Sequence record: ON113172.1
Direction: 5' to 3' (one strand)
Length of the DNA: 57,457 nucleotides
Source of the DNA: Enterococcus phage vB_OCPT_SDS2
Shown here: positions 1 through 57,457 of the stretch, piece by piece
How the letters are laid out: every line of letters starts with the position of its first letter
Numbering within the stretch: the first letter of the stretch is position 1
Notes under the pieces: generated by a model
Database searches by the model: none
What the model was told of the DNA's origin: nothing
What the model saw: the letters and a program-made list of their open reading frames with translations, nothing else
Translations under genes and position numbers: made by a program

Positions 1-148
1 CTGTCTTTAAGAAACTAGATACTGCGTCTTTCGTTAAGACGTGAGGTTGGATAGCTTGTGCTAATTCTGGATTAGATTCAATAGCTCCAACGATAACCTC
101 TGGTGTCAAATCAACTTGTTGTCCTTGTCCTTGTTCTTCTGGATTCAT
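1..148 (-). CDS. N-terminal segment of the scaffolding-like protein gene. ATG at 146-148 (minus) with AAGGAG RBS. It reads through nt 1, which equals 57385, and continues at 57384 into the ORF annotated 56864..57358.
   Basis: Minus-strand reading frame is open from 148 to 1 and in frame with 57457 down to 56864. RBS GAAGGAG lies 8-10 nt upstream. No stop separates this from the MIDQSVSK... ORF. Confidence 0.55.
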   Translation of the reverse strand, partial: MNPEEQGQGQQVDLTPEVIVGAIESNPELAQAIQPHVLTKDAVSSFLKT

Positions 149-4612: not shown

Positions 4613-5209
4613 TTAAAATCCAGAAAGGAAGTCATAACTTACGTCACTATCCTCTTCTTCAACTTCGGTAAAGTCTCCTTCTACAAACTCTTCTTCCTCA
4701 ACCTCTTCAGCTTCATTTGGAACGTCGTCAGCAATGTCTACCACGATATTAAGAGACTGTTCTACCTTGACATCAGGGGCTAATAAGTCATGGAATTTAG
4801 CCAAGCTATTTAGTGCGCTTAATTGAACGCTTGTATCAATAGGTTTCTCTACGACATCTCCTTTTACAGTAACCGTGTAATCAGAGCTGTTTCGTAAAGC
4901 GATATTAGTAAGCTCTTCCAATACCTGTGTTGGACTCATAATAGCTGCGTCAGCATTCTCTGAAACAAGCCATTGTAAATAAGCCTTCACATCCTCACGT
5001 TTTAACACACGATAACCTGAGCTTTCATTATAGCCTACGGAACGGCAGCTTTCAGCGATATTCATAGTTTGCATATAATGTCTCGCAAAGCGTTTCATTT
5101 TAGGTTTTAATGTAGTTAAGTCAACTCCCTCGTATTCGTCTGGCTCCTTAGAAGTAGTTAAATACTTGCGTTGACGTTCTTCCAACTCTCTGTTTCCAAT
5201 TCTTACCAT
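4613..5209 (-). CDS. terS: terminase small subunit. Start taken at MVRIGN with AAAGGAGG RBS.
   Basis: HTH-like N-terminus (FARHYMQTMNIAESCRSVGY..) directly upstream of terL. Acidic C-terminal tail. Confidence 0.6.
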   Translation of the reverse strand: MVRIGNRELEERQRKYLTTSKEPDEYEGVDLTTLKPKMKRFARHYMQTMNIAESCRSVGYNESSGYRVLKREDVKAYLQWLVSENADAAIMSPTQVLEELTNIALRNSSDYTVTVKGDVVEKPIDTSVQLSALNSLAKFHDLLAPDVKVEQSLNIVVDIADDVPNEAEEVEEEEFVEGDFTEVEEEDSDVSYDFLSGF

Positions 5210-5319
5210 AAGTGCTTCCTCCTTTCTGGAGTATTTATTCAAGCTCGTTTAAGAGCCTCTTAGATTAGACCTTATCTAGCTATTTTTGTCACATTTTTTA
5301 ATTTATTGTGAAAAAGTGC

Positions 5320-5489: not shown

Positions 5490-5801
5490 ATGAGAGCAAT
5501 TAAGATGTACTCCATCAAGAGTTATCAGCAGTATTTAGAGAAGCTTGGGACAGTACGAAAAGCGGCCGCAGACTTCGAGCTTAATAATAGCTTTTCAAAG
5601 AAGGCTCATGAATTAATCGCTAACCAGTATGCAGAAGATATTGAGAAGCTTTCCCAAAAGGTTCAAGAGTACCACGAGCTTATTGAGAATATCGTTTCTG
5701 ACGAAGCAGAAGAAGACGAAAAGCAGCTTATGGAATACTTAGGAACCATTAGAAAGCAGCAGAAGATTACTGAAGAGTTAGAGTCTGGAGGTAAGGAATA
5801 A
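5490..5801 (+). CDS. hypothetical protein
   Basis: GGAGG RBS. 103-aa helical protein. Confidence 0.55.
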   Translation: MRAIKMYSIKSYQQYLEKLGTVRKAAADFELNNSFSKKAHELIANQYAEDIEKLSQKVQEYHELIENIVSDEAEEDEKQLMEYLGTIRKQQKITEELESGGKE

Positions 5802-6076
5802 TGGAAGGTATTGAATTGGATTATTACCACGACTTTATTGTAAGCAACTACTTAGGTAATGATAGAGAGTCTATCGAAAACTCATTGGAGGAATTGTTTG
5901 ATATTCTTGACAGCAAGATTGAAGACATTACTGAATCTGAGTTAGAGGCTGCTGTAGATGGAGTTAATGAATCTATTGAGAACCTTACTAATTCTTTAAG
6001 TGAGCTTTCTGATGTCTTTACCAATGCTAAGCGATACTTGGCTAAGGAAGATAAGAAGTGGGAGGAGAATGTCTAA
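5801..6076 (+). CDS. hypothetical acidic protein
   Basis: ATG overlaps the upstream stop (TAATG). 91 aa, rich in D/E. Confidence 0.5.
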   Translation: MEGIELDYYHDFIVSNYLGNDRESIENSLEELFDILDSKIEDITESELEAAVDGVNESIENLTNSLSELSDVFTNAKRYLAKEDKKWEENV

Positions 6077-6462
6077 TGATGATTGCGAGTATTGATAGAG
6101 GAGCATATACTCCAGTGAATGTGAGCATAGGTAATAAGCTTGTGTCATTAGAAAGTTATGCCAATATTATTACATTCAGTAAATCAGAAACAGAAGAACT
6201 CATCCAAGTTCTGCAACAAGCTCTTAAAAAGCTCCCAGAAGAACCTAAATACGTTGTAGTATTTCCCCAGAAATCAGGGGAATTGTTTTGGAAGTATTTC
6301 TATTTAGCCGATACTGGAGCTATTTACAATAGTAATAAACCTCAAGAAGTCTTGGGAGATGGTGCTATGACACTAGGTGAAATTAGAGCTTTTAGTGAGT
6401 ATTACGAACCATTTGCAGTTCCTGTTGAAGAGTTTAAACAAAACGAGATTGGAGAGTTTTAG
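6076..6462 (+). CDS. hypothetical protein (start MMIASIDRG)
   Basis: GGAGGA RBS, then a TAATG overlap with the previous gene. Confidence 0.5.
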   Translation: MMIASIDRGAYTPVNVSIGNKLVSLESYANIITFSKSETEELIQVLQQALKKLPEEPKYVVVFPQKSGELFWKYFYLADTGAIYNSNKPQEVLGDGAMTLGEIRAFSEYYEPFAVPVEEFKQNEIGEF

Positions 6463-6463
6463 T

Positions 6464-6859
6464 ATGAGTAACCTACCTTTTGAGAAAGAATTAAAAGAGG
6501 CTTGTGCAAAGCCTACATTGACACAACGTGAAACAGCTTTAATTGAGCTTGTAGGAAAGCTTCAAGACGCCTTAGTGGATTCCAATTATGATAAACTTTT
6601 GTATGAACAGTGGTATGAAGAGGCTACTGAAGAAGTTAGAGGACTTGACGCTGACTTTGAGGAAGCTTCTTCGGAAATTGACATCCTTGAAAAAGAGATT
6701 CAAGACTTAGAAGAACAGGTATATGACTTAGAGAACGAGCTTGAGAGCTCTGAAGAAACTGTGGCAGAGCTTACAGAAGAAGTTGACACGCTTTCAGAAC
6801 GTGTAGAAGAGCTTGAGGAAACCGTTAACGAGCTTAACAGCGCTTTAGAAATATTATAA
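6464..6859 (+). CDS. acidic coiled-coil protein (start MSNLPFEK)
   Basis: GGAGAG RBS. Heptad repeats (EELEETVNELNSALE). Confidence 0.5.
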   Translation: MSNLPFEKELKEACAKPTLTQRETALIELVGKLQDALVDSNYDKLLYEQWYEEATEEVRGLDADFEEASSEIDILEKEIQDLEEQVYDLENELESSEETVAELTEEVDTLSERVEELEETVNELNSALEIL

Positions 6860-6884
6860 ACAGATACTATTGGAGGAATTTTAA

Positions 6885-7145
6885 ATGAACCGTATTAAAG
6901 TATATACTAAAGACATGTGCCAAGCCTGTAAGATGGCTAAGAGAGTGCTTACAGAAGGCGGAGTAAGCTTTGACGAAGTGTTTGTGGACGTCCGCAATGA
7001 TACAGAGACTGTGGAGATGCTTAGATTAGCGGGTTTCCGAAGCTTTCCAGTAGTGATTTTGGACGAAGACTTCGACACAGCTATTAGTGGATTCCACCCA
7101 CCTCGTTTGAAGGCCTTTATTGAAACTGTTAAGGAGGAAGCTTAA
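6885..7145 (+). CDS. NrdH/glutaredoxin-like redoxin
   Basis: 86 aa. Has a CQAC active-site motif in a thioredoxin-fold context (VYTKDMCQACKMAK...). Confidence 0.55.
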   Translation: MNRIKVYTKDMCQACKMAKRVLTEGGVSFDEVFVDVRNDTETVEMLRLAGFRSFPVVILDEDFDTAISGFHPPRLKAFIETVKEEA

Positions 7146-7516
7146 TGAAACTAATCGATGGAGAAGCTTTATTAACCACTATGAAAAACAAATTGGAATA
7201 CCCAGAAGATGATTACGATGAGGGTTATCAGGACGCTGTAGAAACTTGTATGGACGAAATTAAAGCAGCTTTATCGGTAGCTAAGGAAGAGGCTGCACCA
7301 GAGCCTATTAAATTAGCTATTGATGGAAACATTGTAGCAGAATCCTTTACAGGAAGCTCTGTAACGCCTATTAACACCTTGCCTCATAATTATACCAAAG
7401 ACGTTTTAGAAGCTCTCCTAGAGGCTTCTGAGGACTTCTATGATGCCTCTGAGATTCAAGCCTTGTTAAAAGGAGCTATCCAAGCTATTCCAAAAGGTAA
7501 AGGAGTGATTTTATGA
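7145..7516 (+). CDS. hypothetical protein, MKLID-family paralog
   Basis: N-terminus MKLIDGEALL is shared with 7513..7818 and 15498..15821. Confidence 0.5.
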   Translation: MKLIDGEALLTTMKNKLEYPEDDYDEGYQDAVETCMDEIKAALSVAKEEAAPEPIKLAIDGNIVAESFTGSSVTPINTLPHNYTKDVLEALLEASEDFYDASEIQALLKGAIQAIPKGKGVIL

Positions 7517-7818
7517 AGCTTATTGATGCCGAAGTAGTGTTAAATCACATTGAAAAGACCAAAGAGGAATTAAATACAACCAGCAACGCTGATAATTCAG
7601 CATTCGGAAAAGGTTGGGATGAAGGTTTCCTTGACGGAATCTCCTCTATCAGAGACCTTGTAAAAGACATTATCATAGAGGATGAAATTCCTTTGGCTAA
7701 CCACTCAGACATGATTCCAAAAAGTGAGTTCTTACGCCTTTTAGAAGCTATCCAAAAGCGTACTGAAGGCTGGGACGAATGGCACTTCGTTGCTGGAATT
7801 ATGGAAGCCTATAAATAA
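7513..7818 (+). CDS. hypothetical protein, MKLID-family paralog
   Basis: N-terminus MKLIDAEVVL. Confidence 0.5.
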   Translation: MKLIDAEVVLNHIEKTKEELNTTSNADNSAFGKGWDEGFLDGISSIRDLVKDIIIEDEIPLANHSDMIPKSEFLRLLEAIQKRTEGWDEWHFVAGIMEAYK

Positions 7819-7827
7819 AGCATAAAG

Positions 7828-7862
7828 AAGGCCTTCGGGAAGCTATCCTGAAGGCTTTTCTT
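7828..7862 (+). terminator. intrinsic terminator (9-bp stem with one mismatch, plus T-run)
   Basis: AAGGCCTTC..GAAGGCTTTTCTT directly after the 7818 stop. Confidence 0.5.
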
Positions 7863-8212
7863 ATTACATATTAAAACGAGCCTCTAGGAAGCTTACTAAA
7901 AGTCGCTGCTGGCACTTTGCATTAGGTGAGGCCATACGATTTAATAAGCTTTCTACAAACTCGTCCTTAAAGTAATTAACAACTGACTCCATCCCCGACC
8001 TGTAACCTAGACGTCTCAAAGCTTTAGGAAGGCTTAGGGGAACGTTTCAGGAAGCTTTTAGGAAAGGTCAAGTAATTACTAACTCGCTGGAGACCGCTCG
8101 TTAGTAGCTTCGCTAACTAACTCTTAACTAATACGACAGTATTTCCCACATGCTTTAAATTAGTCTCACTATTTGATGGAATATTTTATAACTGTAAAGT
8201 AAATTTAATGTT

Positions 8213-8234
8213 TGTAACACAAATGTAACATAAA
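8213..8234 (+). repeat. tandem 11-bp direct repeat TGTAACAcAAA / TGTAACAtAAA abutting the -35 of the 8240 promoter
   Basis: Read directly. Candidate operator or activator site. Confidence 0.5.
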
Positions 8235-8239
8235 GGATA

Positions 8240-8268
8240 TTGACAAGGCGCCTGAAAGGTGCTACAAT
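8240..8268 (+). promoter_or_regulatory. promoter TTGACA-N17-TACAAT
   Basis: Hexamers read directly. The annotated ATG at 8269 lies upstream of the expected TSS, so the CDS start was moved to GTG 8302. Confidence 0.55.
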
Positions 8269-8301
8269 ATGCTTATAGAAGAGGACTTAGGAGGGTTTTT
8301 A

Positions 8302-9027
8302 GTGAAGCTTATAAAAGAGGTTAAATCAGTAGACGTTGAGACAGGTTTAGAAACAGTTTACAGAAGCGCCTATGCTGCTTCTAAGGATTTAGGAAAGGAT
8401 TCAACAAGCGTTCGCAACGCCTGTGCTAAAAATAAGGTGTATGCAGGGCATGTGTGGAGTTATACTGGAAGAGAGTTTAAGAAGCATACTTCAATGCAAA
8501 GTAAAAAGCCTATCCAAAAGTATCTGGAAGGGGATTGGAAGCCTATTGAGGGATTTCCTAACTACTCAGTAAGCCGAAAAGGGGAAGTAGTAAATAACCG
8601 TACTGGAAGGATGCTGAAAGCTAGAATAAGCCACAATGGTTACAAGTCACTTTCACTAGGAGCTGGAAACAGTTTCAGAGTCCATCGACTAGTCCTGTCA
8701 ACATTCAGTCCAATAGACGGATGGGAAGAGCTTACAGTAAACCATATTGACGGAGATAAGCTAAACAACTGCTTAGATAACTTGGAGTGGCTCACTTTAG
8801 AGGATAATAAGAAGCACTACTACGACAACAATAAGCGTATATTAGTCTTTGACGATGCTACTGGAGAGGTTTTAGAAGAGGTTACACGAATGGAGAAAGC
8901 TTCCACTAAGTATGGGGTACCTAAAGGGGTTATCCAAGAGCTTTGTGACCTCTATCATGAGGGCATTTACGCTCATGAGAACGGTTATGGATTCTGCCGT
9001 ATGGAAGATTTTGGATTAGATGGTTAA
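8302..9027 (+). CDS. HNH homing endonuclease with NUMOD-type DNA-binding repeats (GTG start after GGAGGG RBS)
   Basis: NUMOD4-like WKPIEGFPNYSVSRKGEV. HNH core HRLV...NHIDGDKLNN. AGG(Y/H)xW(K/S)Y repeats at both ends. Confidence 0.7.
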   Translation: MKLIKEVKSVDVETGLETVYRSAYAASKDLGKDSTSVRNACAKNKVYAGHVWSYTGREFKKHTSMQSKKPIQKYLEGDWKPIEGFPNYSVSRKGEVVNNRTGRMLKARISHNGYKSLSLGAGNSFRVHRLVLSTFSPIDGWEELTVNHIDGDKLNNCLDNLEWLTLEDNKKHYYDNNKRILVFDDATGEVLEEVTRMEKASTKYGVPKGVIQELCDLYHEGIYAHENGYGFCRMEDFGLDG

Positions 9028-9044
9028 AAAGTGTTAGAAAAGGC

Positions 9045-9073
9045 TTGACAACATGCCTCTTTTATGCTATAAT
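9045..9073 (+). promoter_or_regulatory. promoter TTGACA-N17-TATAAT with TGc extended -10
   Basis: Read directly. Confidence 0.6.
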
Positions 9074-9101
9074 AATGGAGTATTAGGAAAGGAATGGTTA
9101 A

Positions 9102-9923
9102 ATGTTTTTCAAGAAGAACGAAAACAAACTGATTAAAGAGCTTGAACAAGAGATTGAATTATTAACTAGTAGAGAAGCCGTCTACCAACTATCCTTGGGG
9201 AGGCTAGAAATTGCTAATGAAGAGCTTCAAAAAGAGGTAGACGCCTTAAAGCTTAAAGAAGCTGGCTACAAAGAGCGTCTTAAATATGCTTCTGATAAGG
9301 AAGTAGAGGCTATTGAAATGGCTAACGAGTCCGCTGAAGAGAGATTGCTTAGACAAGAGGATTATGTTAGACTTGGTAAGAAATTTGAAGAGGTTTGTCA
9401 AAAGCTTTCAGTAGAAGAGGAGCAAAACAAGCGTTGGGAACAGGAAATGGGACGCCTTCAAGAGGATTACAACGGCCTTAAAAGAGAGTATAGAGAGCTT
9501 CAAGAAGCAATTCCTAGTAAGCCCCAACTAACAGCTTCTATTAAAGTTGATACTAAAGAGATTCATGAAATGCTTGATAAAGCCTTGCAAGAGATTAAGG
9601 AAGAGTATTCCCCACGCCTTAAAGAGGAGCCTGAGTATATTTATTGGATTGAAGAAGAAGGGGATTATGGTAGACATTTTGAGAGCGACTCCCCTCAGCA
9701 GTTACTAAGAAAGGTAAACGTATTTTATTCACCTAGTGATGCAGGTATTTTAACAATTTCAGAGGGTCTTCTTGAAATGATTACTCGCAAAAAGCATAAA
9801 GACATAATTATCGAAACTTGTTCAGAGACACCTGTGGAGTTTTATTCAAAAGGTTTTGATAAAATAGTCCAAATTAAGCTTTGCAGAAAGCTTGCTAAAG
9901 GAGTTGGAAACTATATTGTCTGA
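9102..9923 (+). CDS. hypothetical coiled-coil protein
   Basis: 273 aa. N-terminal half is E/K/L-rich heptads. Confidence 0.5.
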   Translation: MFFKKNENKLIKELEQEIELLTSREAVYQLSLGRLEIANEELQKEVDALKLKEAGYKERLKYASDKEVEAIEMANESAEERLLRQEDYVRLGKKFEEVCQKLSVEEEQNKRWEQEMGRLQEDYNGLKREYRELQEAIPSKPQLTASIKVDTKEIHEMLDKALQEIKEEYSPRLKEEPEYIYWIEEEGDYGRHFESDSPQQLLRKVNVFYSPSDAGILTISEGLLEMITRKKHKDIIIETCSETPVEFYSKGFDKIVQIKLCRKLAKGVGNYIV

Positions 9924-10146
9924 GAAATTTACTAAGCGATATATCTTAGCAGCCTTTATCATAGCCTATATGGTAACTGTTGGAGTTATCATTGGAGTAC
10001 TCTGGTTAGTATCCTTAATAACTGGTTGGGAACAGCTTTTCTTCTATCTTGGAATGCTCTTCGTGATAGACCTACTTTGGGAAACTACTAAATACGCATA
10101 TAACCGCTATAACGAAGATAAACATAAGACTTGGGAGGAACTTTAA
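9892..10146 (+). CDS. small 2-TM membrane protein (non-ATG start; the true start may be TTG about 9916 after AAAGGAG)
   Basis: Hydrophobic helices (AAFIIAYMVTVGVIIGVLWLV). Confidence 0.4.
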   Translation: MLKELETILSEKFTKRYILAAFIIAYMVTVGVIIGVLWLVSLITGWEQLFFYLGMLFVIDLLWETTKYAYNRYNEDKHKTWEEL

Positions 10147-10147
10147 T

Positions 10148-10357
10148 ATGAATTGGAAAGCTTTTAGACTAGTATCATTCTCTTATTTAGTAGCATTGGT
10201 GATTGCATTTGGGCTTATTGTAGCCATTACAGCAGTATTTGGAGGAGAGGTTACAATTGCTATTGGACGGATTTTAACAAACTTAATTCTCCTTAAACTA
10301 ATCTGGGATATGCTTCATAAAGAGTACAATAAAGCTAAGCAAGACTTAGAGAAATAA
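10148..10357 (+). CDS. small 2-TM membrane protein
   Basis: GGAGGA RBS. 69 aa, hydrophobic. Confidence 0.5.
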   Translation: MNWKAFRLVSFSYLVALVIAFGLIVAITAVFGGEVTIAIGRILTNLILLKLIWDMLHKEYNKAKQDLEK

Positions 10358-10362
10358 TGTTA

Positions 10363-10399
10363 GAGGCGCCTTGACAAGGCGTCTTTTTTATGCTATAAT
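10363..10399 (+). promoter_or_regulatory. composite unit: terminator hairpin (AGGCGCC / GGCGUCU plus U-run) whose loop is the -35 TTGACA of a TTGACA-N17-TATAAT promoter
   Basis: Read directly: gaGGCGCCttgacaaGGCGtCttttttatgcTATAAT. Confidence 0.6.
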
Positions 10400-10428
10400 A
10401 AGGTATATTAAAAGCGGAGGTAAAGGAT

Positions 10429-10740
10429 ATGAATGGATTTTTAGAAGATGGTTATTACGTTGTTAAGATGAAGTATTGTGGAGTGCCTTATGAATGGGAA
10501 GGTGTAGCAGAAGACGAAGAGGATGCCTTCGACCAAGCTAAGAAAGTCATTTCTGAGGAGCTTCTCCTAAGATATTATAGAGGCTTTGAGCAACACAGGG
10601 TAACAAGACTTAAGATAGTCCATAAGAAGGCTCCAACATATGCTGCCTTAAACTTTTGGAAAGGCGTTGCAGCAGTGTCTGTGGTAGTGTCTATTGCAAT
10701 CTACCTTTTAGAGATGGTTAGAGAATCCATCTACGGCTAA
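10429..10740 (+). CDS. hypothetical protein with C-terminal TM
   Basis: GGAGG RBS. 103 aa. Confidence 0.5.
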   Translation: MNGFLEDGYYVVKMKYCGVPYEWEGVAEDEEDAFDQAKKVISEELLLRYYRGFEQHRVTRLKIVHKKAPTYAALNFWKGVAAVSVVVSIAIYLLEMVRESIYG

Positions 10741-10753
10741 AATAAACCTTCAG

Positions 10754-10788
10754 GAGGCCTTGACACGGCCTCTTTTTTATGGTATACT
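10754..10788 (+). promoter_or_regulatory. composite terminator (GAGGCC/GGCCTC plus T6) and promoter (TTGACA in the loop, N17, TATACT)
   Basis: Read directly. Only a 21-codon ORF (10823..10888) follows. Confidence 0.55.
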
Positions 10789-10899
10789 ATAATAAACGAT
10801 AAGAAAGGTGTGTTGAACAGTATGTTAGAACGCATTAAGGGAATGCTTCGGAAGATTGCCTCTTCCAACGGCCTTGCAACGGCCTGAATAAGCTTCCTA

Positions 10900-11760
10900 C
10901 AACTTAATAAACGCTTGTGTGAATACTCCACTAGAAAGAGGCAAAGCCTCTAGGGCTGCCGACAAGCGGCGCCCTCTCTATATGTGGAATCTATTCTTAA
11001 AGGACACTAAAGAAGAGGTATCAGGAAAGGTAGCTTTAAAGCTTTTGGACGTCTATTGATGGAATGCTTTTCGGATAGCTTGTCGGAATAGCCTCGGAAA
11101 GCTTGTCGGGAAGTGTGTCGGGACGCCTTATAGGGGATTTTTAGCAAAAAATAAATCGGAAGGCCTATAATGTCGCTTTTCCCAAAAACTGTGTGAGATG
11201 GACAGTCGCGCCCCCCCCGCCCACCCTCGGAAAAGCTACCCCCTGCCCTTCCCAAAGACCCCCGCCCGCCGTTGCCACGCCTGCGCCCTGCGCCTTCCTT
11301 CACGCTTCACGACGCCTTGCGAGTGCTTCGCGACGCTCTCACGTCACGCCGTCCGACACGCTCACACAAGCGACTTCACTTAGACTCTGTCTCTTTGCTG
11401 TTAACATTGCATTGAGTCAGGGTCTTTCTACTTTGGATAATGTGTATTATGTAAACTAGCGCCTTGTTAGGGCTGTTCGGATAGCTTTCGGACACCATTA
11501 GCACGCCTCTATAATGCCTGTCGTGTGCCTGTGAGTGTGGTCTTTAGTGTTAACCTGTGGTGAAAGCTATCGGACACCCTCTCGAGCCACCTCTCCCCAA
11601 AGCCCACCACACCAGCATTCCGCAAAGCCTTCTTATTTCCTTTAATAAAAACAAATCCACCACAAAGCTTTCGATTAGGCTTCTTAGATTCGCCTTGAGA
11701 TTACGCCCCTTCACGCCCTCTAGATACCCTTCAGAAAAACCCCCATAACAACGCCCTAGA
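10900..11760. repeat. non-coding GC-rich island carrying iterons and a C8 homopolymer (11211-11218). It lies in the convergence zone between the plus-strand module and the leftward early genes.
   Basis: Repeats found:
- TTCGGATAGCTT at 11060 and 11476.
- GCTTGTCGG at 11068 and 11091, with its reverse complement at 10959.
- AGCT(T/A)TCGGACACC at 11483 and 11565.
The local GC content is far above the genome average. ORFs here are Gly/Arg/Pro-rich artefacts. Confidence 0.6.
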
Positions 11761-12175
11761 AAAAGCTTTAAAATAATATTGTTAGGCGCCCTCTCATTTC
11801 CTTTAAAAATCCCCTAGGATTAAAAGGCTTTTAATAATTGTTTCTCACATTTCCGTTTCTTTCCTTGCTTTTTTGATGGATTAATAATAGCATTTAAGAA
11901 TATTCTTTGCCTATTCCTTTACCTACTACTTTAATACATGTGTGAGAGAGGGCTTCTCGTAACGTTTCAAGAAAGAAGTTGGGTAGTTAATCATTAGAAA
12001 GCTTTATAAACGTTGTAAGAAATGCCTAGGTTAGCTGGATTAGAAAAGCATTCCACAAATTAAGATGGGCAGCCTTGAGTATTACTTTTAAGAAAGCAAA
12101 AAGAAAAGCCTTCGAGAAGTTATCTCAAAAGCTTTACTGATTCCTGTTTATTAAGTTTGAAAAAATGTTTTTAAA

Positions 12176-12478
12176 TTATTTATGTGCTTCTCTATAGTTT
12201 TTAAGAAGCGTTGGCTTGTGTGCTTTATAAGCTTCGGTATATTCCTTTTGTGCTTCTTCCTCATGATTGATTAGATATGCGCCGATTACATTAGACTTAA
12301 CAGCAATATCATATTCTTGCTTGTCGGAAAGTTTTTCCAAAGCTTCCACACGTTCCGTAAGAATAGCTTTTTCATTTGCGTTTTCTACTGCCTTAAATGT
12401 TGCGATTCCTGTTGTGATAGCCAAAGCGATTGCTAAAATTGTTAAGCCTGTGATAATGTTTTTAAATTGTTTTGTCAT
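12176..12478 (-). CDS. hypothetical protein with N-terminal signal-anchor
   Basis: 100 aa. TM is ITGLTILAIALAITTGIATF. Confidence 0.45.
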   Translation of the reverse strand: MTKQFKNIITGLTILAIALAITTGIATFKAVENANEKAILTERVEALEKLSDKQEYDIAVKSNVIGAYLINHEEEAQKEYTEAYKAHKPTLLKNYREAHK

Positions 12479-36387: not shown

Positions 36388-36479
36388 AATAATCTCTCCT
36401 CTATCTCTTTGATGAATTAATCATACCACGTATTGAAAGTTTTGTCAAGGACTTTTTAACAAAAAAAGAACAGCCGTTA

Positions 36480-37200
36480 AGCTGCTCTAATCGAAAGGAG
36501 GTGATTCTTTATGAAAGAGGTTTTTAGAAGAGCTGATAAACAGCCAATGCCACGGAGCGGAATCGAACCGCTTCTCTAAGCTTCTCCATGAGCGTGGCCG
36601 CTGGTAGCCAACTCCAGCTTCCGAAGACTTCACTAGGGAGCTACTCTGGACTTCTTGGCTAATGCGCTGTTGGTGACCTCCCTACAGGCCTTGGTTAACA
36701 GCGTGCATTAATGTTCAACCCTTTCATAAGGTGGCTGGACACCTTGTCGTACGACGCTCTCCTAAGTGGATTACTCCACCATGGGTAATGTTTTGGCCAA
36801 GGCGCTTACCTCGCCTTCCATCACGAGTGTAGCTAGTTTTAGCTGAGGACTGCTACTGCCCTCCTATGAATCACATGTAGCTCCGCTCCTAGTCGTTAAG
36901 CACGCTACGGAATAAGCTTTACAGCAAAGGATTATTGAGCGTTCCCTTTACCAACCCTCCATGGTACACTTCCAGACGCTGTCCGAAGTGCTTTTCGGGA
37001 AGTATGTAAGGCGCCAGTAGAGGATTCGAACCTCTTTCCCAATCAGCCTCCGACAAGCGCTATAGGAAGACTGTTGTGCATTAACCTAAACTATGCTAAC
37101 TGACTGGTTAGGGATGTCGGGCGAGGCTTTGGTGAGTAGCTAGCTCTCCTTTGCAGTCGGGGACTTCCCTTATGTAACAGCAGATAAGAAATCCATCTTA
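36480..37200 (-). other. ORF-free, GC-elevated structured region. It has two tRNA-like T-arm/acceptor modules with minus-strand 3' ends near 36548 and 37010, a D-arm-like hairpin GCTGG-AGTTGGCTA-CCAGC, and many nested hairpins. No complete cloverleaf could be resolved by hand.
   Basis: - Plus-strand GGAATCGAACC at 36561-36571.
- Plus-strand GGATTCGAACC at 37022-37032, which is the reverse complement of GGTTCGA(A/T)TCC.
- Acceptor-like 3' strands follow each T-arm.
- The canonical D-loop sequence AGUUGG is present. Confidence 0.35.
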
Positions 37201-37214
37201 CCTACTTTATGGAA

Positions 37215-38754: not shown

Positions 38755-39615
38755 TTAGAAATCGATTCCTGAAGGGTCTACTGTACAAACTTCATCAGCG
38801 CCATTGTTAGTGGCAGCTGGTGCAGCTGTAGGTAAGTTTGGTAAACGAGTTGTGTCGAAACCAATTTTCTTCAAGTCTTCAATTTGGCGTTCAACAGAGC
38901 TTTCAAAGATTGCGTTCTCGAAATCTTCTTCAGGGACTGTAGCGCCTTCTGTAGCTTTGAACACTTCTAATTCTTCAGGCGTTAAGTCTTCGTCGTCTAA
39001 AGGTGTGAAAGTGTAACGGTTAGCCGCTTCGCAAGTAATCTCGAAGGCTTTCTTAGGGAATTTCTTAGCGTTAGTTTCTTTTGATAAGAAGTTCGTTAAG
39101 GCGTCAATGTTGGCATTGTCACGGCCTAAGTTAGTTTCTAATAAGATTGGCTCGCCAGCAGGGTAAGTGTTAGTTTTCTTAGTTCCTTGCGTGAAGTCTG
39201 CTAAAGGAATTACACCGAATAAGATAAGTGGTTTTGGAGTTAAGATACGAGCTGCTTTATAAGAGTCTTTATCAGCTTGTGAACCACGTTCGATTTCCCC
39301 TGATTCAACTTTAGCACGGTGGTCTGCTAACATGATTTCAGTTGCTTCATGATACAAGTCACGCACGTCTGTACGTCCTTCTGCATGGTATGATAATGTT
39401 GGTAACACTTGCGGTTCAAACACTGAAACGACTTGGTTAACGTGTAAGTTTTCTAAAGTATCTACAGGAATGCGTGCACGAATGCTTTGACCTTTTTTAA
39501 GATAAGTCTTTTTAGACTGCTCTCCTGAACCTTTTGATTGTGCTTGTGCTGCCTGTGCGATTGCTTCTAAACCTTTAGCCATAATTAATTTCCTCCTAAT
39601 AAGTTCTTTATTCAT
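38755..39615 (-). CDS. putative ssDNA-binding / annealing protein (SSB-like acidic C-terminal tip ..DPSGIDF)
   Basis: 286 aa. The C-terminal acidic D-(I/F)-x-F tip resembles SSB interaction tails. It has its own TTGACT-N17-TATACT promoter at about 39645-39673. Confidence 0.3.
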   Translation of the reverse strand: MNKELIRRKLIMAKGLEAIAQAAQAQSKGSGEQSKKTYLKKGQSIRARIPVDTLENLHVNQVVSVFEPQVLPTLSYHAEGRTDVRDLYHEATEIMLADHRAKVESGEIERGSQADKDSYKAARILTPKPLILFGVIPLADFTQGTKKTNTYPAGEPILLETNLGRDNANIDALTNFLSKETNAKKFPKKAFEITCEAANRYTFTPLDDEDLTPEELEVFKATEGATVPEEDFENAIFESSVERQIEDLKKIGFDTTRLPNLPTAAPAATNNGADEVCTVDPSGIDF

Positions 39616-39760
39616 CTTTACTACTTCATTAGTATAGCATATTATAAAGTATAAGTCAAGCCTTTTTGAACATTTGTTAAAGTTTATTATTACAGTTTTG
39701 TTACAATTGTTTCAACAACCTTACAATTAACGACTCCACAAAAGTTCTTGTGTAAAATCG

Positions 39761-39789
39761 CTTGACAAAAAATGGTAATTTTAGTATAC
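39761..39789 (+). promoter_or_regulatory. plus-strand promoter TTGACA-N17-TATACT driving an ORF-less transcript
   Basis: Read directly. Confidence 0.55.
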
Positions 39790-39795
39790 TGGTCT

Positions 39796-40010
39796 TAGGG
39801 GTCTTAAAGAGAGAAATAGAAGTTTACTAAAGAGTTTCACAACCGACTTTAGGAGGTTGTAGCTGAGTGTTAACGAAGCTGCTCTTGAACTTAAAGACCG
39901 TAAGGTCTTATGGTTTAAGGATAGCTATAGCATATAGTATAGGGGAAAGGCGTTCGGAAAGTTCCCTCACAGCCTAAAGACTCCTTTCAGTCGCCTTTGA
40001 AACTTTTTCG
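39796..40010 (+). ncRNA. candidate small RNA of about 210 nt. It runs from the promoter to a long hairpin (AAAGGCG...CGCCTTT) followed by a T-run. It contains a perfect hairpin AAGACC-GUAA-GGUCUU.
   Basis: There is no ATG ORF. The only candidate is a GTG-initiated 36 codons after a GGAGG. Confidence 0.3.
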
Positions 40011-56863: not shown

Positions 56864-57457
56864 TTATCCACGTTGAACCAACTGGCGATATTTAGCAGGG
56901 TTAGTTCGAGCAAGTTCTGTCGCTTCTTCAACAGTTAAATCTGTTAACCGTTCTACAGTTTTAGAACCGCCAATGCTAGACATGTCGTCTGAGTTTGTTG
57001 GAGCTGCTTTAGCTGCGATTCCAGCAACCTTCTGGTCAACTAGTCCTGAAACGATATTCTGGATTTCAATATCTAATTCTGAAACCTTGTGCTTAACGGC
57101 TTCGGGATTGTCTGATAAAACGTACCCAGCTAATGAGGCAGGCAACCCAGCTTTTGCTAAAGCTTCTTGAGCTACTCCACGCATTTCCAACATTTGCTTA
57201 TCTTTTTGAATAGCTGCCATTTGAGCTTGCATTTGTTTCAATTGCTTTTGCTCAGGTGTTTCAGCAGGGTTTAACTCAGCCAATCGCTCTTGAACGATAT
57301 TCTCTAAGTTCTTTTCTTTCCAAGCGTTAATGCCTTTAGAAACGCTTTGGTCAATCATAGGGGCTACTACGCCAAGACCTTCGTCTGTCTTTAAGAAACT
57401 AGATACTGCGTCTTTCGTTAAGACGTGAGGTTGGATAGCTTGTGCTAATTCTGGATT
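56864..57457 (-). CDS. scaffolding-like protein, 3' part. The gene continues past the window end into nt 74..148.
   Basis: Helical Q/A/K-rich protein. The frame is open upstream of the track Met at 57358, with no RBS there. Full gene is about 222 aa. Confidence 0.55.
   Translation of the reverse strand, partial: NPELAQAIQPHVLTKDAVSSFLKTDEGLGVVAPMIDQSVSKGINAWKEKNLENIVQERLAELNPAETPEQKQLKQMQAQMAAIQKDKQMLEMRGVAQEALAKAGLPASLAGYVLSDNPEAVKHKVSELDIEIQNIVSGLVDQKVAGIAAKAAPTNSDDMSSIGGSKTVERLTDLTVEEATELARTNPAKYRQLVQRG

What the first reader, a model, noticed from the sequence alone, without database searches (positions are those of the whole stretch)
10900..11760. GC-rich iteron island with a C8 tract in the convergent intergenic zone
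- About 0.85 kb with no credible ORF, embedded in a compact low-GC genome.
- It contains several exact or near-exact iterons: TTCGGATAGCTT twice, GCTTGTCGG twice plus one inverted copy, and AGCT(T/A)TCGGACACC twice.
- It also has a run of 8 C and a very GC-rich core (11200-11400) full of CACG and CGAC short repeats.
- The location is where rightward and leftward transcription converge.
- It is a candidate replication origin, a packaging or partition-like site, or a non-coding RNA.
- The 10-mer CCGACAAGCG also occurs inside the tRNA-like block (37052).
Basis: seen in the sequence. Interest (0 to 1): 0.7.

Follow-up and report, generated by a model that had tools for sequence, protein, structure and literature searches.

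The report
Phage genome ends: terminal repeat junction
The GC-rich "iteron island" is where this Enterococcus phage's linear DNA begins and ends: a 343-bp sequence repeated at both ends of the packaged genome, plus the conserved non-coding DNA around it. This is a known kind of feature, already annotated in a few relatives.

Summary
The window is a complete, circularly assembled Saphexavirus genome (Enterococcus faecalis siphophage, SAP6/VD13/IME-EF1 group).

The island straddles the direct terminal repeat (DTR) of the virion DNA. In window coordinates the DTR is 11205 (GTCGCGCC...) to 11547 (...GTCTTTAG), 343 bp. Five independent relatives fix the same boundaries:
- TV16 and SE annotate the repeats.
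- BC611 and fHoEfa06 carry the repeat at both record ends.
- Ef2.2 carries a partial copy at both ends.

A published restriction map of SE shows fixed ends with a repeat of about 300 bp. The "convergent intergenic zone" is therefore an artefact of the circular map. Both gene arms are transcribed outward, toward the physical ends.

Other results:
- The roughly 1.2-kb non-coding junction is a conserved island between unalignable accessory genes.
- Its TCGGR units, spaced 11-12 nt, flank and enter the repeat, as the CCTAAAG arrays do around the T7 terminal repeat (checked here).
- A CTATAATG box lies 33 nt before the left boundary and 32 nt before the right boundary in every genome examined. I did not find this described in the papers I searched.
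- The C8 tract is not conserved.
- The genome's only G-quadruplex motifs lie in the first 65 nt of the repeat.

An origin or a non-coding RNA is neither supported nor excluded. This is a known kind of feature, of modest interest.

The parts
10752..10788 (+). Composite terminator hairpin and near-consensus sigma-70 promoter (TTGACA-17-TATACT with TG). It reads rightward into the junction.
   Evidence: 11 of 12 promoter matches, and a hairpin at 10752-10774 followed by a T-run.
10822..10887 (+). 21-aa micro-ORF (MLERIKGMLRKIASSNGLATA), the last gene of the right arm.
   Evidence: intact in 13 of 13 genomes. Variable sites by codon position are 6/5/16, a third-position bias that indicates coding constraint.
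10893..11000 (.). Nearly invariant non-coding block, 205-310 bp before the left repeat boundary. It holds a small hairpin and the inverted GCTTGTCGG copy (10959-10967).
   Evidence: 98-99% identity across 13 genomes, while the genes to its left are 40-60% identical or unalignable. for the motif. The 46-aa ORF at 10919-11059 shows no third-position bias.
11066..11125 (+). Phased array of five TCGG(A/G) units, starting at 11071, 11083, 11094, 11106 and 11118 (period 11-12 nt). It lies 80-135 bp before the left boundary.
   Evidence: Relatives gain or lose whole 11-12-nt units. An HNH gene is inserted just after the array, at 11122/11123, in Entf1, EF-P29 and SSsP-1.
11156..11173 (+). Left boundary module, TCGGAAGGCCTATAATG. 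The TATAAT ends 33 nt before the left repeat boundary.
   Evidence: the 33-nt distance holds in the aligned genomes and in the further loci checked, including Entf1 with its HNH insertion.
11205..11547 (.). Direct terminal repeat (343 bp), present once in this circular assembly and twice in virion DNA. The left physical end starts GTCGCGCC. The right physical end finishes GTCTTTAG.
   Evidence: TV16 annotates 340-bp left and right direct repeats. SE annotates a 343-bp DTR. BC611 has an exact 341-bp end redundancy. Ef2.2 has 319 bp. The fHoEfa06 record starts and ends exactly at these boundaries. Restriction mapping of SE is in PMC11510935.
11205..11375 (.). GC-rich, C-over-G core that forms the left half of the repeat. 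It holds the CACG and CGAC clusters.
   Evidence: 69.6% GC, with 84 C against 35 G on the + strand.
11211..11218 (+). C8 tract, 7-14 nt from the left physical end. It is not conserved.
   Evidence: Relatives read CGCGCC(C/A)CGCCC here. The first 25 nt or so of the repeat are its most variable part.
11211..11267 (-). The only canonical G-quadruplex motifs of the 57-kb genome (for example GGGCGGGGGTCTTTGGGAAGGG).
   Evidence: regex and G4Hunter scan of both strands. The motif is kept in 10 of 11 relatives.
11350..11459 (.). Nearly invariant block inside the repeat.
   Evidence: 95-98% identity.
11476..11497 (+). Two TCGGA units (TTCGGATAGCT TTCGGACACC) inside the repeat, 50-72 nt before the right boundary. 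The other allele group has three units.
   Evidence: The left array against this site scores 32, against a null of 17.3 +/- 2.1.
11504..11517 (+). Right boundary module, CGCCTCTATAATGCC. The TATAAT ends 32 nt before the right repeat boundary.
   Evidence: invariant box and distance in 13 of 13 genomes and in TV16 and BC611 (SE is shifted by 1 nt). The genome holds only 4 CTATAATG copies.
11562..11578 (+). Single unit GAAAGCTATCGGACACC, 15-31 nt beyond the right boundary.
11548..12104 (.). Non-coding leader between the left repeat copy and the first gene. The + strand is C-rich. It holds conserved blocks at 11745-11800 and 11950-12000, and AAAGCTTT palindromes at 11664, 11762 and 11998.
   Evidence: AAAGCTTT has 5 of its 19 genomic sites within 10890-12140, against 0.4 expected. 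ORFs here are broken in relatives.
12105..12135 (-). Intrinsic terminator that closes the leftward gene arm.
   Evidence: a 13-pair stem followed by a T-run on the - strand.

Best explanation
The island is the end-to-end junction of the phage genome.

**Shown.** Virion DNA of this genus is linear, with fixed ends and an exact direct terminal repeat of 340-343 bp. In this window the repeat is 11205-11547. It is collapsed to one copy because the assembly was circularised. The 310 bp before it is the unique right end of the genome. The 560 bp after it is the unique left-end leader. The whole 1.2-kb junction is non-coding. It is as conserved as the structural genes, while the accessory genes on both sides are mosaic.

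**Inferred.** The junction carries the cis-acting signals that let terminase recognise replicated (concatemeric) DNA. Terminase then cuts at 11204/11205 and 11547/11548. Because each junction holds one repeat copy and each virion genome holds two, the repeat would need to be duplicated during maturation, as in T7 (or alternate genomes discarded).

- My preferred candidates for the elements that position the cuts are the two direct CTATAATG boxes. Each has a TCGGR unit 9-11 nt upstream in most genomes. They lie 33 nt and 32 nt (about three helical turns) before the two boundaries.
- The phased TCGGR arrays are candidate binding or wrapping sites for the small terminase subunit. That subunit is an SPP1/SF6-type ring of helix-turn-helix domains.
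- The GC-rich, G-quadruplex-capable first 170 nt would be a terminal structural element. It could stabilise the end or act as a pause or strand-separation signal.

My probabilities: ends and repeat located here, about 0.93; junction holds the packaging signals, about 0.75; the boxes set the cuts, about 0.3; the arrays bind TerS, about 0.35.
For: **Physical ends**
- About 20 GenBank records break inside the island.
- TV16 annotates identical 340-bp left and right direct repeats that align to window 11205-11547.
- SE annotates a 343-bp DTR.
- BC611 has an exact 341-bp terminal redundancy with the same first and last bases.
- fHoEfa06 was organised from PhageTerm ends. Its record begins at ...TTTAG and ends at GTCGCGC....
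- Ef2.2 carries 319 bp at both ends.
- Restriction fragments of SE show equimolar terminal fragments about 300 bp longer than predicted (PMC11510935).
- PhageTerm called 'DTR (short)' for three Kenyan Saphexaviruses (PMC11465766).

**Cis-acting constraint**
- The junction is 100% alignable at 0.8-0.9 identity, between arms that do not align.
- The ORFs within it are broken in relatives.

**Architecture**
- TCGGA occurs 9 times against 1.6 expected, and GCTTGTCGG 6 times against 0.17.
- Array units vary by whole copies among relatives.
- T7, examined directly, has about 12 CCTAAAG heptamers at a 13-nt period right after its 160-bp repeat, plus copies inside the repeat and before the right copy.
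- The two T7 boundaries also share a motif at equal offsets.

**Boxes**
- CTATAATG lies 33 nt and 32 nt before the two boundaries in 13 of 13 aligned genomes, and in TV16, BC611 and Entf1.
- The genome holds only 4 copies.
- Only 0.7% of random position pairs 343 bp apart share an 8-mer in this way.

**Terminase**
- TerS is Pfam Terminase_2 and is homologous to SF6 G1P (3ZQP).
- TerL is Terminase_3/3C, homologous to Sf6 gp2 and SPP1 G2P.
Against: - No reads or virion DNA exist for this particular genome. Its ends are inferred from homology of the boundary sequences.
- PhageTerm called two relatives 'headful', although their record ends fall at or within 19 nt of the same boundaries.
- Nothing here shows protein binding.
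- For the homologous SF6 TerS, the isolated DNA-binding domain showed little specificity for the direct repeats of the pac site (PMC4737164). Repeats near a packaging site are therefore not proof of TerS recognition.
- An HNH gene inserted between the left array and the left boundary in three viable phages shows that array-to-cut spacing is not critical.
- The constant spacing between box and cut is not in itself significant. Given the indel density of the zone, about 0.9 indels would be expected in those 65 nt (my estimate).
- The boxes are perfect -10 hexamers and could instead be promoter elements.
- The terminase belongs to a lineage usually linked to headful packaging. The T7 analogy therefore covers end structure, not enzyme family.
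Confidence: 0.8

Rival explanations
1. The island is, or also contains, a replication origin. An initiator protein would bind the phased TCGGR repeats and melt nearby AT-rich DNA. The GC-rich, strand-asymmetric core could support R-loop or G4-assisted priming.
For: - Phased short repeats with copy-number variation.
- AT-poor and AT-rich contrasts nearby.
- A strong promoter reads into the zone.
- The cumulative GC skew turns here.
- From my own knowledge, T7 has secondary origins near both ends.
Against: - The repeats are 11-12-nt units, not 17-22-bp iterons.
- DnaA boxes do not cluster: there is one 1-mismatch site in the zone.
- No initiator gene is adjacent. The replication genes (helicase, loader, primase, polymerase) lie 8-15 kb away in the relative's map.
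- The skew turn coincides with the switch of gene orientation. It is a cumulative maximum, which is terminus-like rather than origin-like.
- The location of the physical ends already explains the conservation.
Confidence: 0.12
2. The conserved flanks mainly serve transcription. They would hold outward-reading promoters (including the two TATAAT boxes), a non-coding RNA from the leader, or a C-rich Rho-loading zone. Such a zone would stop read-through across the junction on circular or concatemeric templates.
For: - A near-consensus promoter at 10760-10788 reads into the zone.
- Both boxes are perfect TATAAT hexamers. The right one has TTCGGA 17 nt upstream.
- The + strand of 11150-11400 and 11550-11800 is C-rich and G-poor, with skew from -0.3 to -0.49.
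- T7 also has promoters reading toward or through its ends (A0 and phiOR).
Against: - No Rfam family matches.
- No structure is significantly more stable than shuffles.
- The boxes lack a usable -35 or a TG extension, and the promoter scan did not list them.
- CTATAATG is not a recurrent promoter motif in this genome (4 copies).
- This reading would not explain why the repeat boundaries fall at fixed distances from the boxes.
Confidence: 0.15
3. Nothing functional lies here. GC-rich, hard-to-sequence filler merely makes assemblies break at this place, so the clustering of record ends is technical.
For: - Several records break at slightly different points inside the GC-rich core, for example VD13 KJ094032.2 at about 11226-11241.
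- The C8 homopolymer could be a sequencing error.
Against: - Exact repeats of 340-343 bp at both ends occur in four independent records, from different technologies and countries, with identical first and last bases.
- Published restriction mapping shows fixed ends.
- The zone is conserved at 85-99% across 72 records.
Confidence: 0.03

Closest known systems
Direct terminal repeats annotated in Saphexavirus relatives (TV16 MN939408, SE PP583004; restriction mapping in PMC11510935)
   Same: This is the same element. It is 90% identical to the TV16 repeat. It has the same boundary sequences (GTCGCGC... and ...TTTAG), the same length class (340-343 bp) and the same genomic position.
   Different: In this window the repeat is collapsed to one copy by circular assembly, and it has a private C8 tract near the end. 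The records and the paper give only the repeat itself. I found no description of the flanking arrays, the boundary boxes or the G4 motif in the papers I searched.
Bacteriophage T7/T3 concatemer junction (160-bp terminal repeat with flanking SRL/SRR short-repeat arrays; packaging signals near the right end)
   Same: - A short exact terminal repeat.
- Phased arrays of a short motif next to and inside the repeat. T7 has CCTAAAG at a 13-nt period and this phage has TCGGR at 11-12 nt (against 33, 99).
- A motif shared by the two boundaries at equal offsets.
- Promoters reading toward or through the ends.
   Different: - This is a siphovirus of a Gram-positive host.
- The terminase is of the SPP1/Sf6 type (Terminase_3 with Terminase_2), not T7 gp18/gp19.
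- No phage RNA polymerase is annotated in the relative, so T7's polymerase-pause coupling (PMC3276506) cannot apply as such.
- The shared boundary motif lies 32-40 nt upstream of the cuts rather than across them.
- The repeat is GC-rich and strand-asymmetric.
SPP1/SF6 pac site (pacL-pacC-pacR with boxA/B/C direct repeats; TerS G1P, TerL G2P)
   Same: The terminase subunits are homologous. Sets of short direct repeats surround the cleavage site (PMC4737164).
   Different: - SPP1 packages by the headful mechanism from a pac site that overlaps the TerS gene, which gives permuted, redundant genomes.
- Here the site is about 6 kb from terS and the ends are fixed, with an exact short repeat.
Iteron-type replication origins (lambda ori, SPP1 oriL/oriR, plasmid iterons)
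   Same: Clustered, helically phased direct repeats in a conserved non-coding zone. A few copies of the motif also occur in a second non-coding zone at 36.5-37.2 kb.
   Different: - The units are short (11-12 nt).
- There is no adjacent initiator gene and no DnaA-box cluster.
- The second zone consists of tRNA-like remnants.
Herpesvirus terminal 'a' sequence (pac1/pac2 next to GC-rich, G-quadruplex-forming repeats). This comparison is recalled from my own knowledge and was not tested here.
   Same: GC-rich, G4-capable DNA lies right at the terminase cleavage region of a genome with direct terminal repeats.
   Different: The sequences and hosts are unrelated. No G4 formation has been shown here.

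Membership tests
Short exact direct terminal repeat genome ends (PhageTerm class 'DTR short') | The same sequence is present at both ends of the virion DNA. | tested here: met
   Met in relatives: TV16 340 bp, SE 343 bp, BC611 341 bp, fHoEfa06, and Ef2.2 319 bp. The window keeps both boundary sequences. Its own virion ends cannot be read from an assembly.
Short exact direct terminal repeat genome ends (PhageTerm class 'DTR short') | The ends are fixed and non-permuted (equimolar terminal restriction fragments, sharp read-start peaks). | not testable with these tools
   Literature only: restriction mapping of SE (PMC11510935) and PhageTerm 'DTR (short)' for KEN03, KEN05 and KEN17 (PMC11465766). 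Two relatives were called 'headful'.
Short exact direct terminal repeat genome ends (PhageTerm class 'DTR short') | A single copy of the repeat appears when the genome is assembled as a circle or concatemer. | tested here: met
   The window is circularly closed (73-nt end overlap inside head genes) and holds one copy at 11205-11547.
T7-type concatemer junction | Arrays of a short motif, regularly spaced, adjoin the terminal repeat, with copies inside it. | tested here: met
   T7. Window: TCGGR units at 11071-11118, 11477-11488 and 11570.
T7-type concatemer junction | T7-family terminase (gp18/gp19) and packaging coupled to a phage RNA polymerase. | tested here: not met
   TerL is Terminase_3/3C and TerS is Terminase_2. 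No RNA polymerase appears among the annotated genes seen for the relative Pumpjack.
SPP1-type pac (headful) packaging site | Terminase subunits of the SPP1/SF6 families. | tested here: met
   3ZQP, E = 3e-7; 2WBN, 4IFE.
SPP1-type pac (headful) packaging site | The site overlaps or adjoins the terS gene, and the packaged genomes are permuted and terminally redundant. | tested here: not met
   terS is at 4613-5242, about 6 kb from the junction. Relatives have fixed ends with an exact repeat.
Iteron-containing replication origin | Several direct repeats of about 17-22 bp bound by an initiator encoded nearby. | tested here: not met
   The units are 11-12 nt. The neighbouring genes are small hypothetical proteins without Pfam matches, and the replication genes are distant.
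Iteron-containing replication origin | An adjacent AT-rich unwinding element and/or a DnaA-box cluster, and initiation mapped to the site. | tested here: inconclusive
   DnaA boxes do not cluster. AT-rich stretches exist at 11800-11950 and 12100-12250, but they coincide with promoters and terminators. Initiation cannot be mapped with these tools.
Structured non-coding RNA | A match to a known family, or a structure clearly more stable than shuffles or supported by covariation. | tested here: not met
   Rfam gave nothing above threshold. Folding z-scores were -1.67, -1.82 and +0.35. The conserved blocks are too invariant for a covariation test.

The most novel reading that the evidence does not exclude
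Two direct copies of one recognition module define the two ends of the terminal repeat. Each module is a TCGGR unit followed by a CTATAATG box. A terminase of the SPP1/Sf6 (normally headful) lineage would act as a ruler and cut about 32-33 bp downstream of each box. This would produce an exact 343-bp repeat. The unique G-quadruplex-capable, C-over-G terminal segment would assist strand separation, pausing or end protection while the repeat is duplicated. This would be a mechanism of terminal-repeat formation distinct from that of T7.
Probability: 0.25. Interest if true: 0.6.

Novelty: new member of a known kind. Interest (0 to 1): 0.35.

Why it matters
**Practical value.** The result fixes the true start and end of this genome: the left end is at 11205, the right end is at 11547, and the true virion length is the assembly length plus 343 bp. 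It shows that the 'convergent' zone is really two outward-facing arms. It also explains why many Saphexavirus records break or start at this place. These phages are widely proposed for therapy against Enterococcus faecalis.

**Scientific value.** How terminases outside the T7 group make exact short terminal repeats is poorly understood. Here a headful-type terminase is paired with fixed ends. Two invariant boxes sit equidistant from the two cuts, and a natural HNH insertion separates one repeat array from its cut site. Together these give a compact hypothesis that mutagenesis can test directly.

Tried and rejected
- **Known RNA families.** An Rfam gathering scan of the whole window and an E-value scan of 10700-12250 gave only a chance U4 hit below threshold.
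- **Folding.** The invariant left block and both boundary regions gave z-scores of -1.67, -1.82 and +0.35, so no structure stands out.
- **Hidden genes.** All ORFs of 36 aa or more inside 11000-11750 are broken in relatives. The 46-aa ORF at 10919-11059 stays open but shows no third-position bias (6/9/6 variable sites).
- **DnaA boxes.** They do not cluster in the zone.
- **Extended similarity between the two flanks.** The shared 11-mer GGCGCCCTCTC lies 237 bp and 238 bp outside the two boundaries. Its alignment score falls within the range of the shuffles, so I do not build on it.
- **Inverted repeat around the left cut.** An 8-bp inverted repeat is centred on it (GCTTTTCC...GGAAAAGC). It is imperfect in the other allele group and has no counterpart at the right cut.
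- **Window end overlap.** The 73-nt overlap is not the terminal repeat. It lies within the head morphogenesis and scaffold genes.
- **Pumpjack and GiddyUp record ends.** They fall in the zone only because those records were opened at a stop codon. I did not count them as evidence.
- **More distant relatives.** A TerS-based scan of IMG/VR returned only members of the genus, so no deep comparison was possible.
- **Satellites carrying the packaging signal.** A scan of one genome per species for an invariant 30-mer of the repeat found only a 19.8-kb 'Prescottella plasmid'. This is probably phage contamination.
- **Chi-like protection motifs.** The terminus holds clustered GCGTG on the - strand. 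I found no Enterococcus Chi sequence in the papers I searched and have no host genome statistics, so this remains untested.
- **Motif copy at 20.1 kb.** It lies inside a coding gene and is probably chance.
- **Motif copy at 37.05 kb.** It lies inside a degenerate tRNA-like element.
Full report
**What the window is**

The 57,457-base window matches 72 phage records at 83-95% identity across the flagged zone. Almost all are Enterococcus faecalis siphophages of the genus Saphexavirus, such as SAP6, VD13, IME-EF1, BC611 and TV16. The first and last 73 bases of the window are identical. Position 1 lies inside the head morphogenesis and scaffold genes. The window is therefore a complete genome closed into a circle by the assembler.

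The gene map comes from the ORF lists and from the annotated relative Pumpjack:
- A long leftward arm runs from 12176 around the circle to 5242. It holds small early genes, then replication, lysis, tail, head and terminase genes.
- A short rightward arm runs from 5490 to 10887.

**Checking the observation**

- The two 12-mers TTCGGATAGCTT are at 11070 and 11476.
- GCTTGTCGG is at 11078 and 11101, and inverted at 10959. The genome holds 6 copies against 0.17 expected.
- AGCT(T/A)TCGGACACC is at 11483 and 11565.
- A C8 run is at 11211-11218.
- The core reaches 74% GC in a genome of 39.8% GC.
- CACG and CGAC are strongly enriched in 11200-11400.

The zone without genes is larger than stated, 10888-12104. 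ORFs inside it are interrupted in relatives. Careful annotators leave it blank, while Phanotate-based records fill it with inconsistent small ORFs.

Two corrections apply.
- The C8 tract is private to this genome. Relatives read CGCGCC(C/A)CGCCC at that place.
- The 10-mer shared with 37 kb is at 37050. It lies in a degenerate tRNA-like remnant.

**What it is**

A search with the non-coding zone showed that about 20 GenBank records have a record end inside it. The ends cluster at two points about 340 bp apart. One record, TV16, annotates a 'right direct repeat' there. I followed this up in five relatives.
- TV16 carries identical 340-bp repeats at both ends. They align to window 11205-11547 at 90% identity.
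- SE annotates a 343-bp DTR at the same place, shifted by one base at each side.
- BC611 has an exact 341-bp terminal redundancy that starts GTCGCGCG and ends GGTCTTTAG.
- Ef2.2 carries 319 bp at both ends.
- fHoEfa06 was arranged by its authors from PhageTerm ends. Its record starts exactly at ...TTTAG and finishes exactly at GTCGCGC....

The SE paper reports equimolar terminal restriction fragments about 300 bp longer than predicted, and it concludes that the genome has a DTR of about 300 bp. It adds that packaging had not been determined experimentally for related phages (PMC11510935). PhageTerm gave 'DTR (short)' for three Kenyan Saphexaviruses (PMC11465766).

The window keeps both boundary sequences: GGACA|GTCGCGCC and GTCTTTAG|TGTTAACC. 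The island is thus the junction of the genome ends. It consists of:
- the unique right end (10888-11204);
- the terminal repeat (11205-11547), which appears once because of the circular assembly;
- the unique left leader (11548-12104).

The 'convergence' of transcription is a property of the circular drawing. In the virion the two arms point outward. All near-consensus sigma-70 promoters lie in these arms and none lies in the structural block.

**Anatomy**

The junction is an island of conservation. It is fully alignable at 0.8-0.9 identity, while the accessory genes on both sides do not align at all. Blocks at 10893-11000 and 11350-11459 are 95-99% identical.

The repeated unit has the core TCGG(A/G).
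- Five units spaced 11-12 nt lie at 11071-11118, 80-135 bp before the left boundary.
- Two units (three in the other allele group) lie inside the repeat near its right end.
- One unit lies 22 nt beyond the right boundary.

Relatives differ by whole units of the left array. In Entf1, EF-P29 and SSsP-1 an HNH endonuclease gene is inserted at 11122/11123, between the array and the boundary. The array-to-cut distance is therefore not critical.

The left half of the repeat is 69.6% GC, with 84 C against 35 G on the + strand. The only canonical G-quadruplex motifs in the genome lie on the - strand at 11211-11267. They are kept in 10 of 11 relatives.

One element is shared by both boundaries, the 8-mer CTATAATG. 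Its TATAAT ends 33 nt before the left boundary and 32 nt before the right boundary. This holds in all 13 aligned genomes and in TV16, BC611 and Entf1, although the spacers differ at about a third of positions between allele groups. The genome has only four copies of the 8-mer. Only 0.7% of random position pairs 343 bp apart share an 8-mer in this way. The distance between the two boxes (344 bp) matches the repeat length.

**How it most likely works**

Shown: the ends and the repeat are here, and the junction is under strong constraint at the nucleotide level.

Inferred: replicated DNA joined head to tail has one repeat per junction. Terminase must recognise the junction and cut at both boundaries, and the repeat would need to be duplicated (or alternate genomes discarded), as in T7.

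I checked T7 directly. Its 160-bp repeat is followed by about twelve CCTAAAG heptamers at a 13-nt period. Copies also lie inside the repeat and before the right copy. Its two boundaries also share a motif at equal offsets. The end architecture is therefore T7-like.

The enzyme is not T7-like. TerL is Pfam Terminase_3/3C and TerS is Terminase_2. They are homologous to the SPP1, SF6 and Sf6 proteins, which are normally linked to headful packaging. No phage RNA polymerase is annotated in the relative.

My preferred model is that the two box modules position the two cuts, and that the TCGGR arrays help load or wrap the ring-shaped small subunit. There are cautions.
- For the homologous SF6 protein, the isolated DNA-binding domain showed little preference for the pac-site repeats (PMC4737164).
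- The boxes are also perfect -10 hexamers.
- The absence of indels in the two spacers is not in itself significant.

**Rivals**

- An origin is not excluded, but it has no positive support. There is no DnaA-box cluster, no nearby initiator gene, and the skew follows gene orientation.
- A transcriptional role for parts of the flanks is plausible. A promoter at 10760-10788 reads into the junction, and the + strand is C-rich. There is no evidence for a structured RNA.
- A purely technical explanation, in which assemblies break in GC-rich DNA, is contradicted by the exact repeats and the restriction data.

**Novelty and verdict**

The terminal repeat of this genus is already recorded in two GenBank annotations and one paper. 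This is another member of a known kind of feature. The fine structure may be new: I found none of it in the literature I could search. It comprises the phased TCGGR arrays, the two equidistant CTATAATG boxes, the unique G4-capable terminal segment, and the pairing of fixed ends with a headful-lineage terminase. It gives a testable model for how such ends are made. Interest is modest (0.35).

Noticed in passing
window 10362-10399 (+), 10752-10788 (+), 24945-24909 (-), 31039-31003 (-): Recurrent composite module. The -35 hexamer TTGACA sits in the loop of a GC-rich terminator hairpin, and the hairpin's T-run forms the spacer of a TG-extended -10. One 37-nt element would thus end one transcript and start the next.
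   Followed up: partly
window 10822-10887 (+): A 21-aa micro-ORF (MLERIKGMLRKIASSNGLATA) lies just downstream of the promoter at 10760-10788. It is intact in 13 of 13 genomes, and substitutions concentrate at third codon positions (6/5/16). It is probably a real, mostly unannotated gene.
   Followed up: partly
window 36450-37210 (- strand): A second non-coding zone of about 0.75 kb lies next to tRNA-Trp. It contains tRNA-like remnants with T-arm-like GGTTCGAATCC pieces. ARAGORN calls them only at relaxed thresholds (about 36548-36618 and 37010-37105), and Rfam finds nothing. It also holds several TCGGR and GTCGG copies.
   Followed up: partly
L008 (Entf1) 884-1396; window-equivalent 11122/11123: A free-standing HNH homing endonuclease gene is inserted in the conserved non-coding junction of Entf1, EF-P29 and SSsP-1. 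It lies exactly between the TCGGR array and the left boundary module.
   Followed up: yes
window 1-73 and 57385-57457: The two ends of the window are identical over 73 nt. This is an assembly overlap inside the head genes, not the terminal repeat.
   Followed up: yes
whole window (promoter scans): All near-consensus sigma-70 promoters (11-12 of 12 matches, usually with TG) lie in the two arms and point toward the genome ends. The exceptions are two at 39.8-40.0 kb and one isolated match at 1639. The 40-57 kb and 1-5 kb structural block otherwise has none, which suggests that late genes use another promoter type.
   Followed up: no
window 11038, 11664, 11762, 11998, 12128: The palindrome AAAGCTTT has 5 of its 19 genomic sites in the 1.25-kb junction, against 0.4 expected. 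Ten of the 19 lie within 8.0-14.8 kb, near both genome ends. All five junction sites are conserved in relatives. The function is unknown.
   Followed up: partly
L033 (CP121461.1, 'Prescottella defluvii plasmid unnamed3', 19.8 kb): A bacterial 'plasmid' record contains the invariant 30-mer of the Saphexavirus terminal repeat. It is most likely phage contamination or a mislabelled contig.
   Followed up: no
records PV874195.1, PP848412.1, HE962497.1: Records named Enterobacter phage BHUENT5, Escherichia phage vb_EcoB_G21-7 and Streptococcus phage SP-QS1 match the junction (83-87% identical) and head genes of this Saphexavirus genome. The host labels look doubtful.
   Followed up: no
window 11205-11230: The first 25 nt or so of the terminal repeat are its most variable part among relatives (C8 here; CGCCAC, CCCCAC and CCGCCT variants elsewhere), while the next 40 nt are nearly invariant. 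This could reflect error-prone end formation or errors at read ends.
   Followed up: no
L031/L032 (T7 1-700 and 39200-39937): In T7 the two boundaries of the terminal repeat are followed by similar sequences: TCTCACAGTGTACGGACCTAAAGT and ATCTGTTACAGTCTCCTAAAGT. This is a shared context comparable to the paired boxes seen here.
   Followed up: partly
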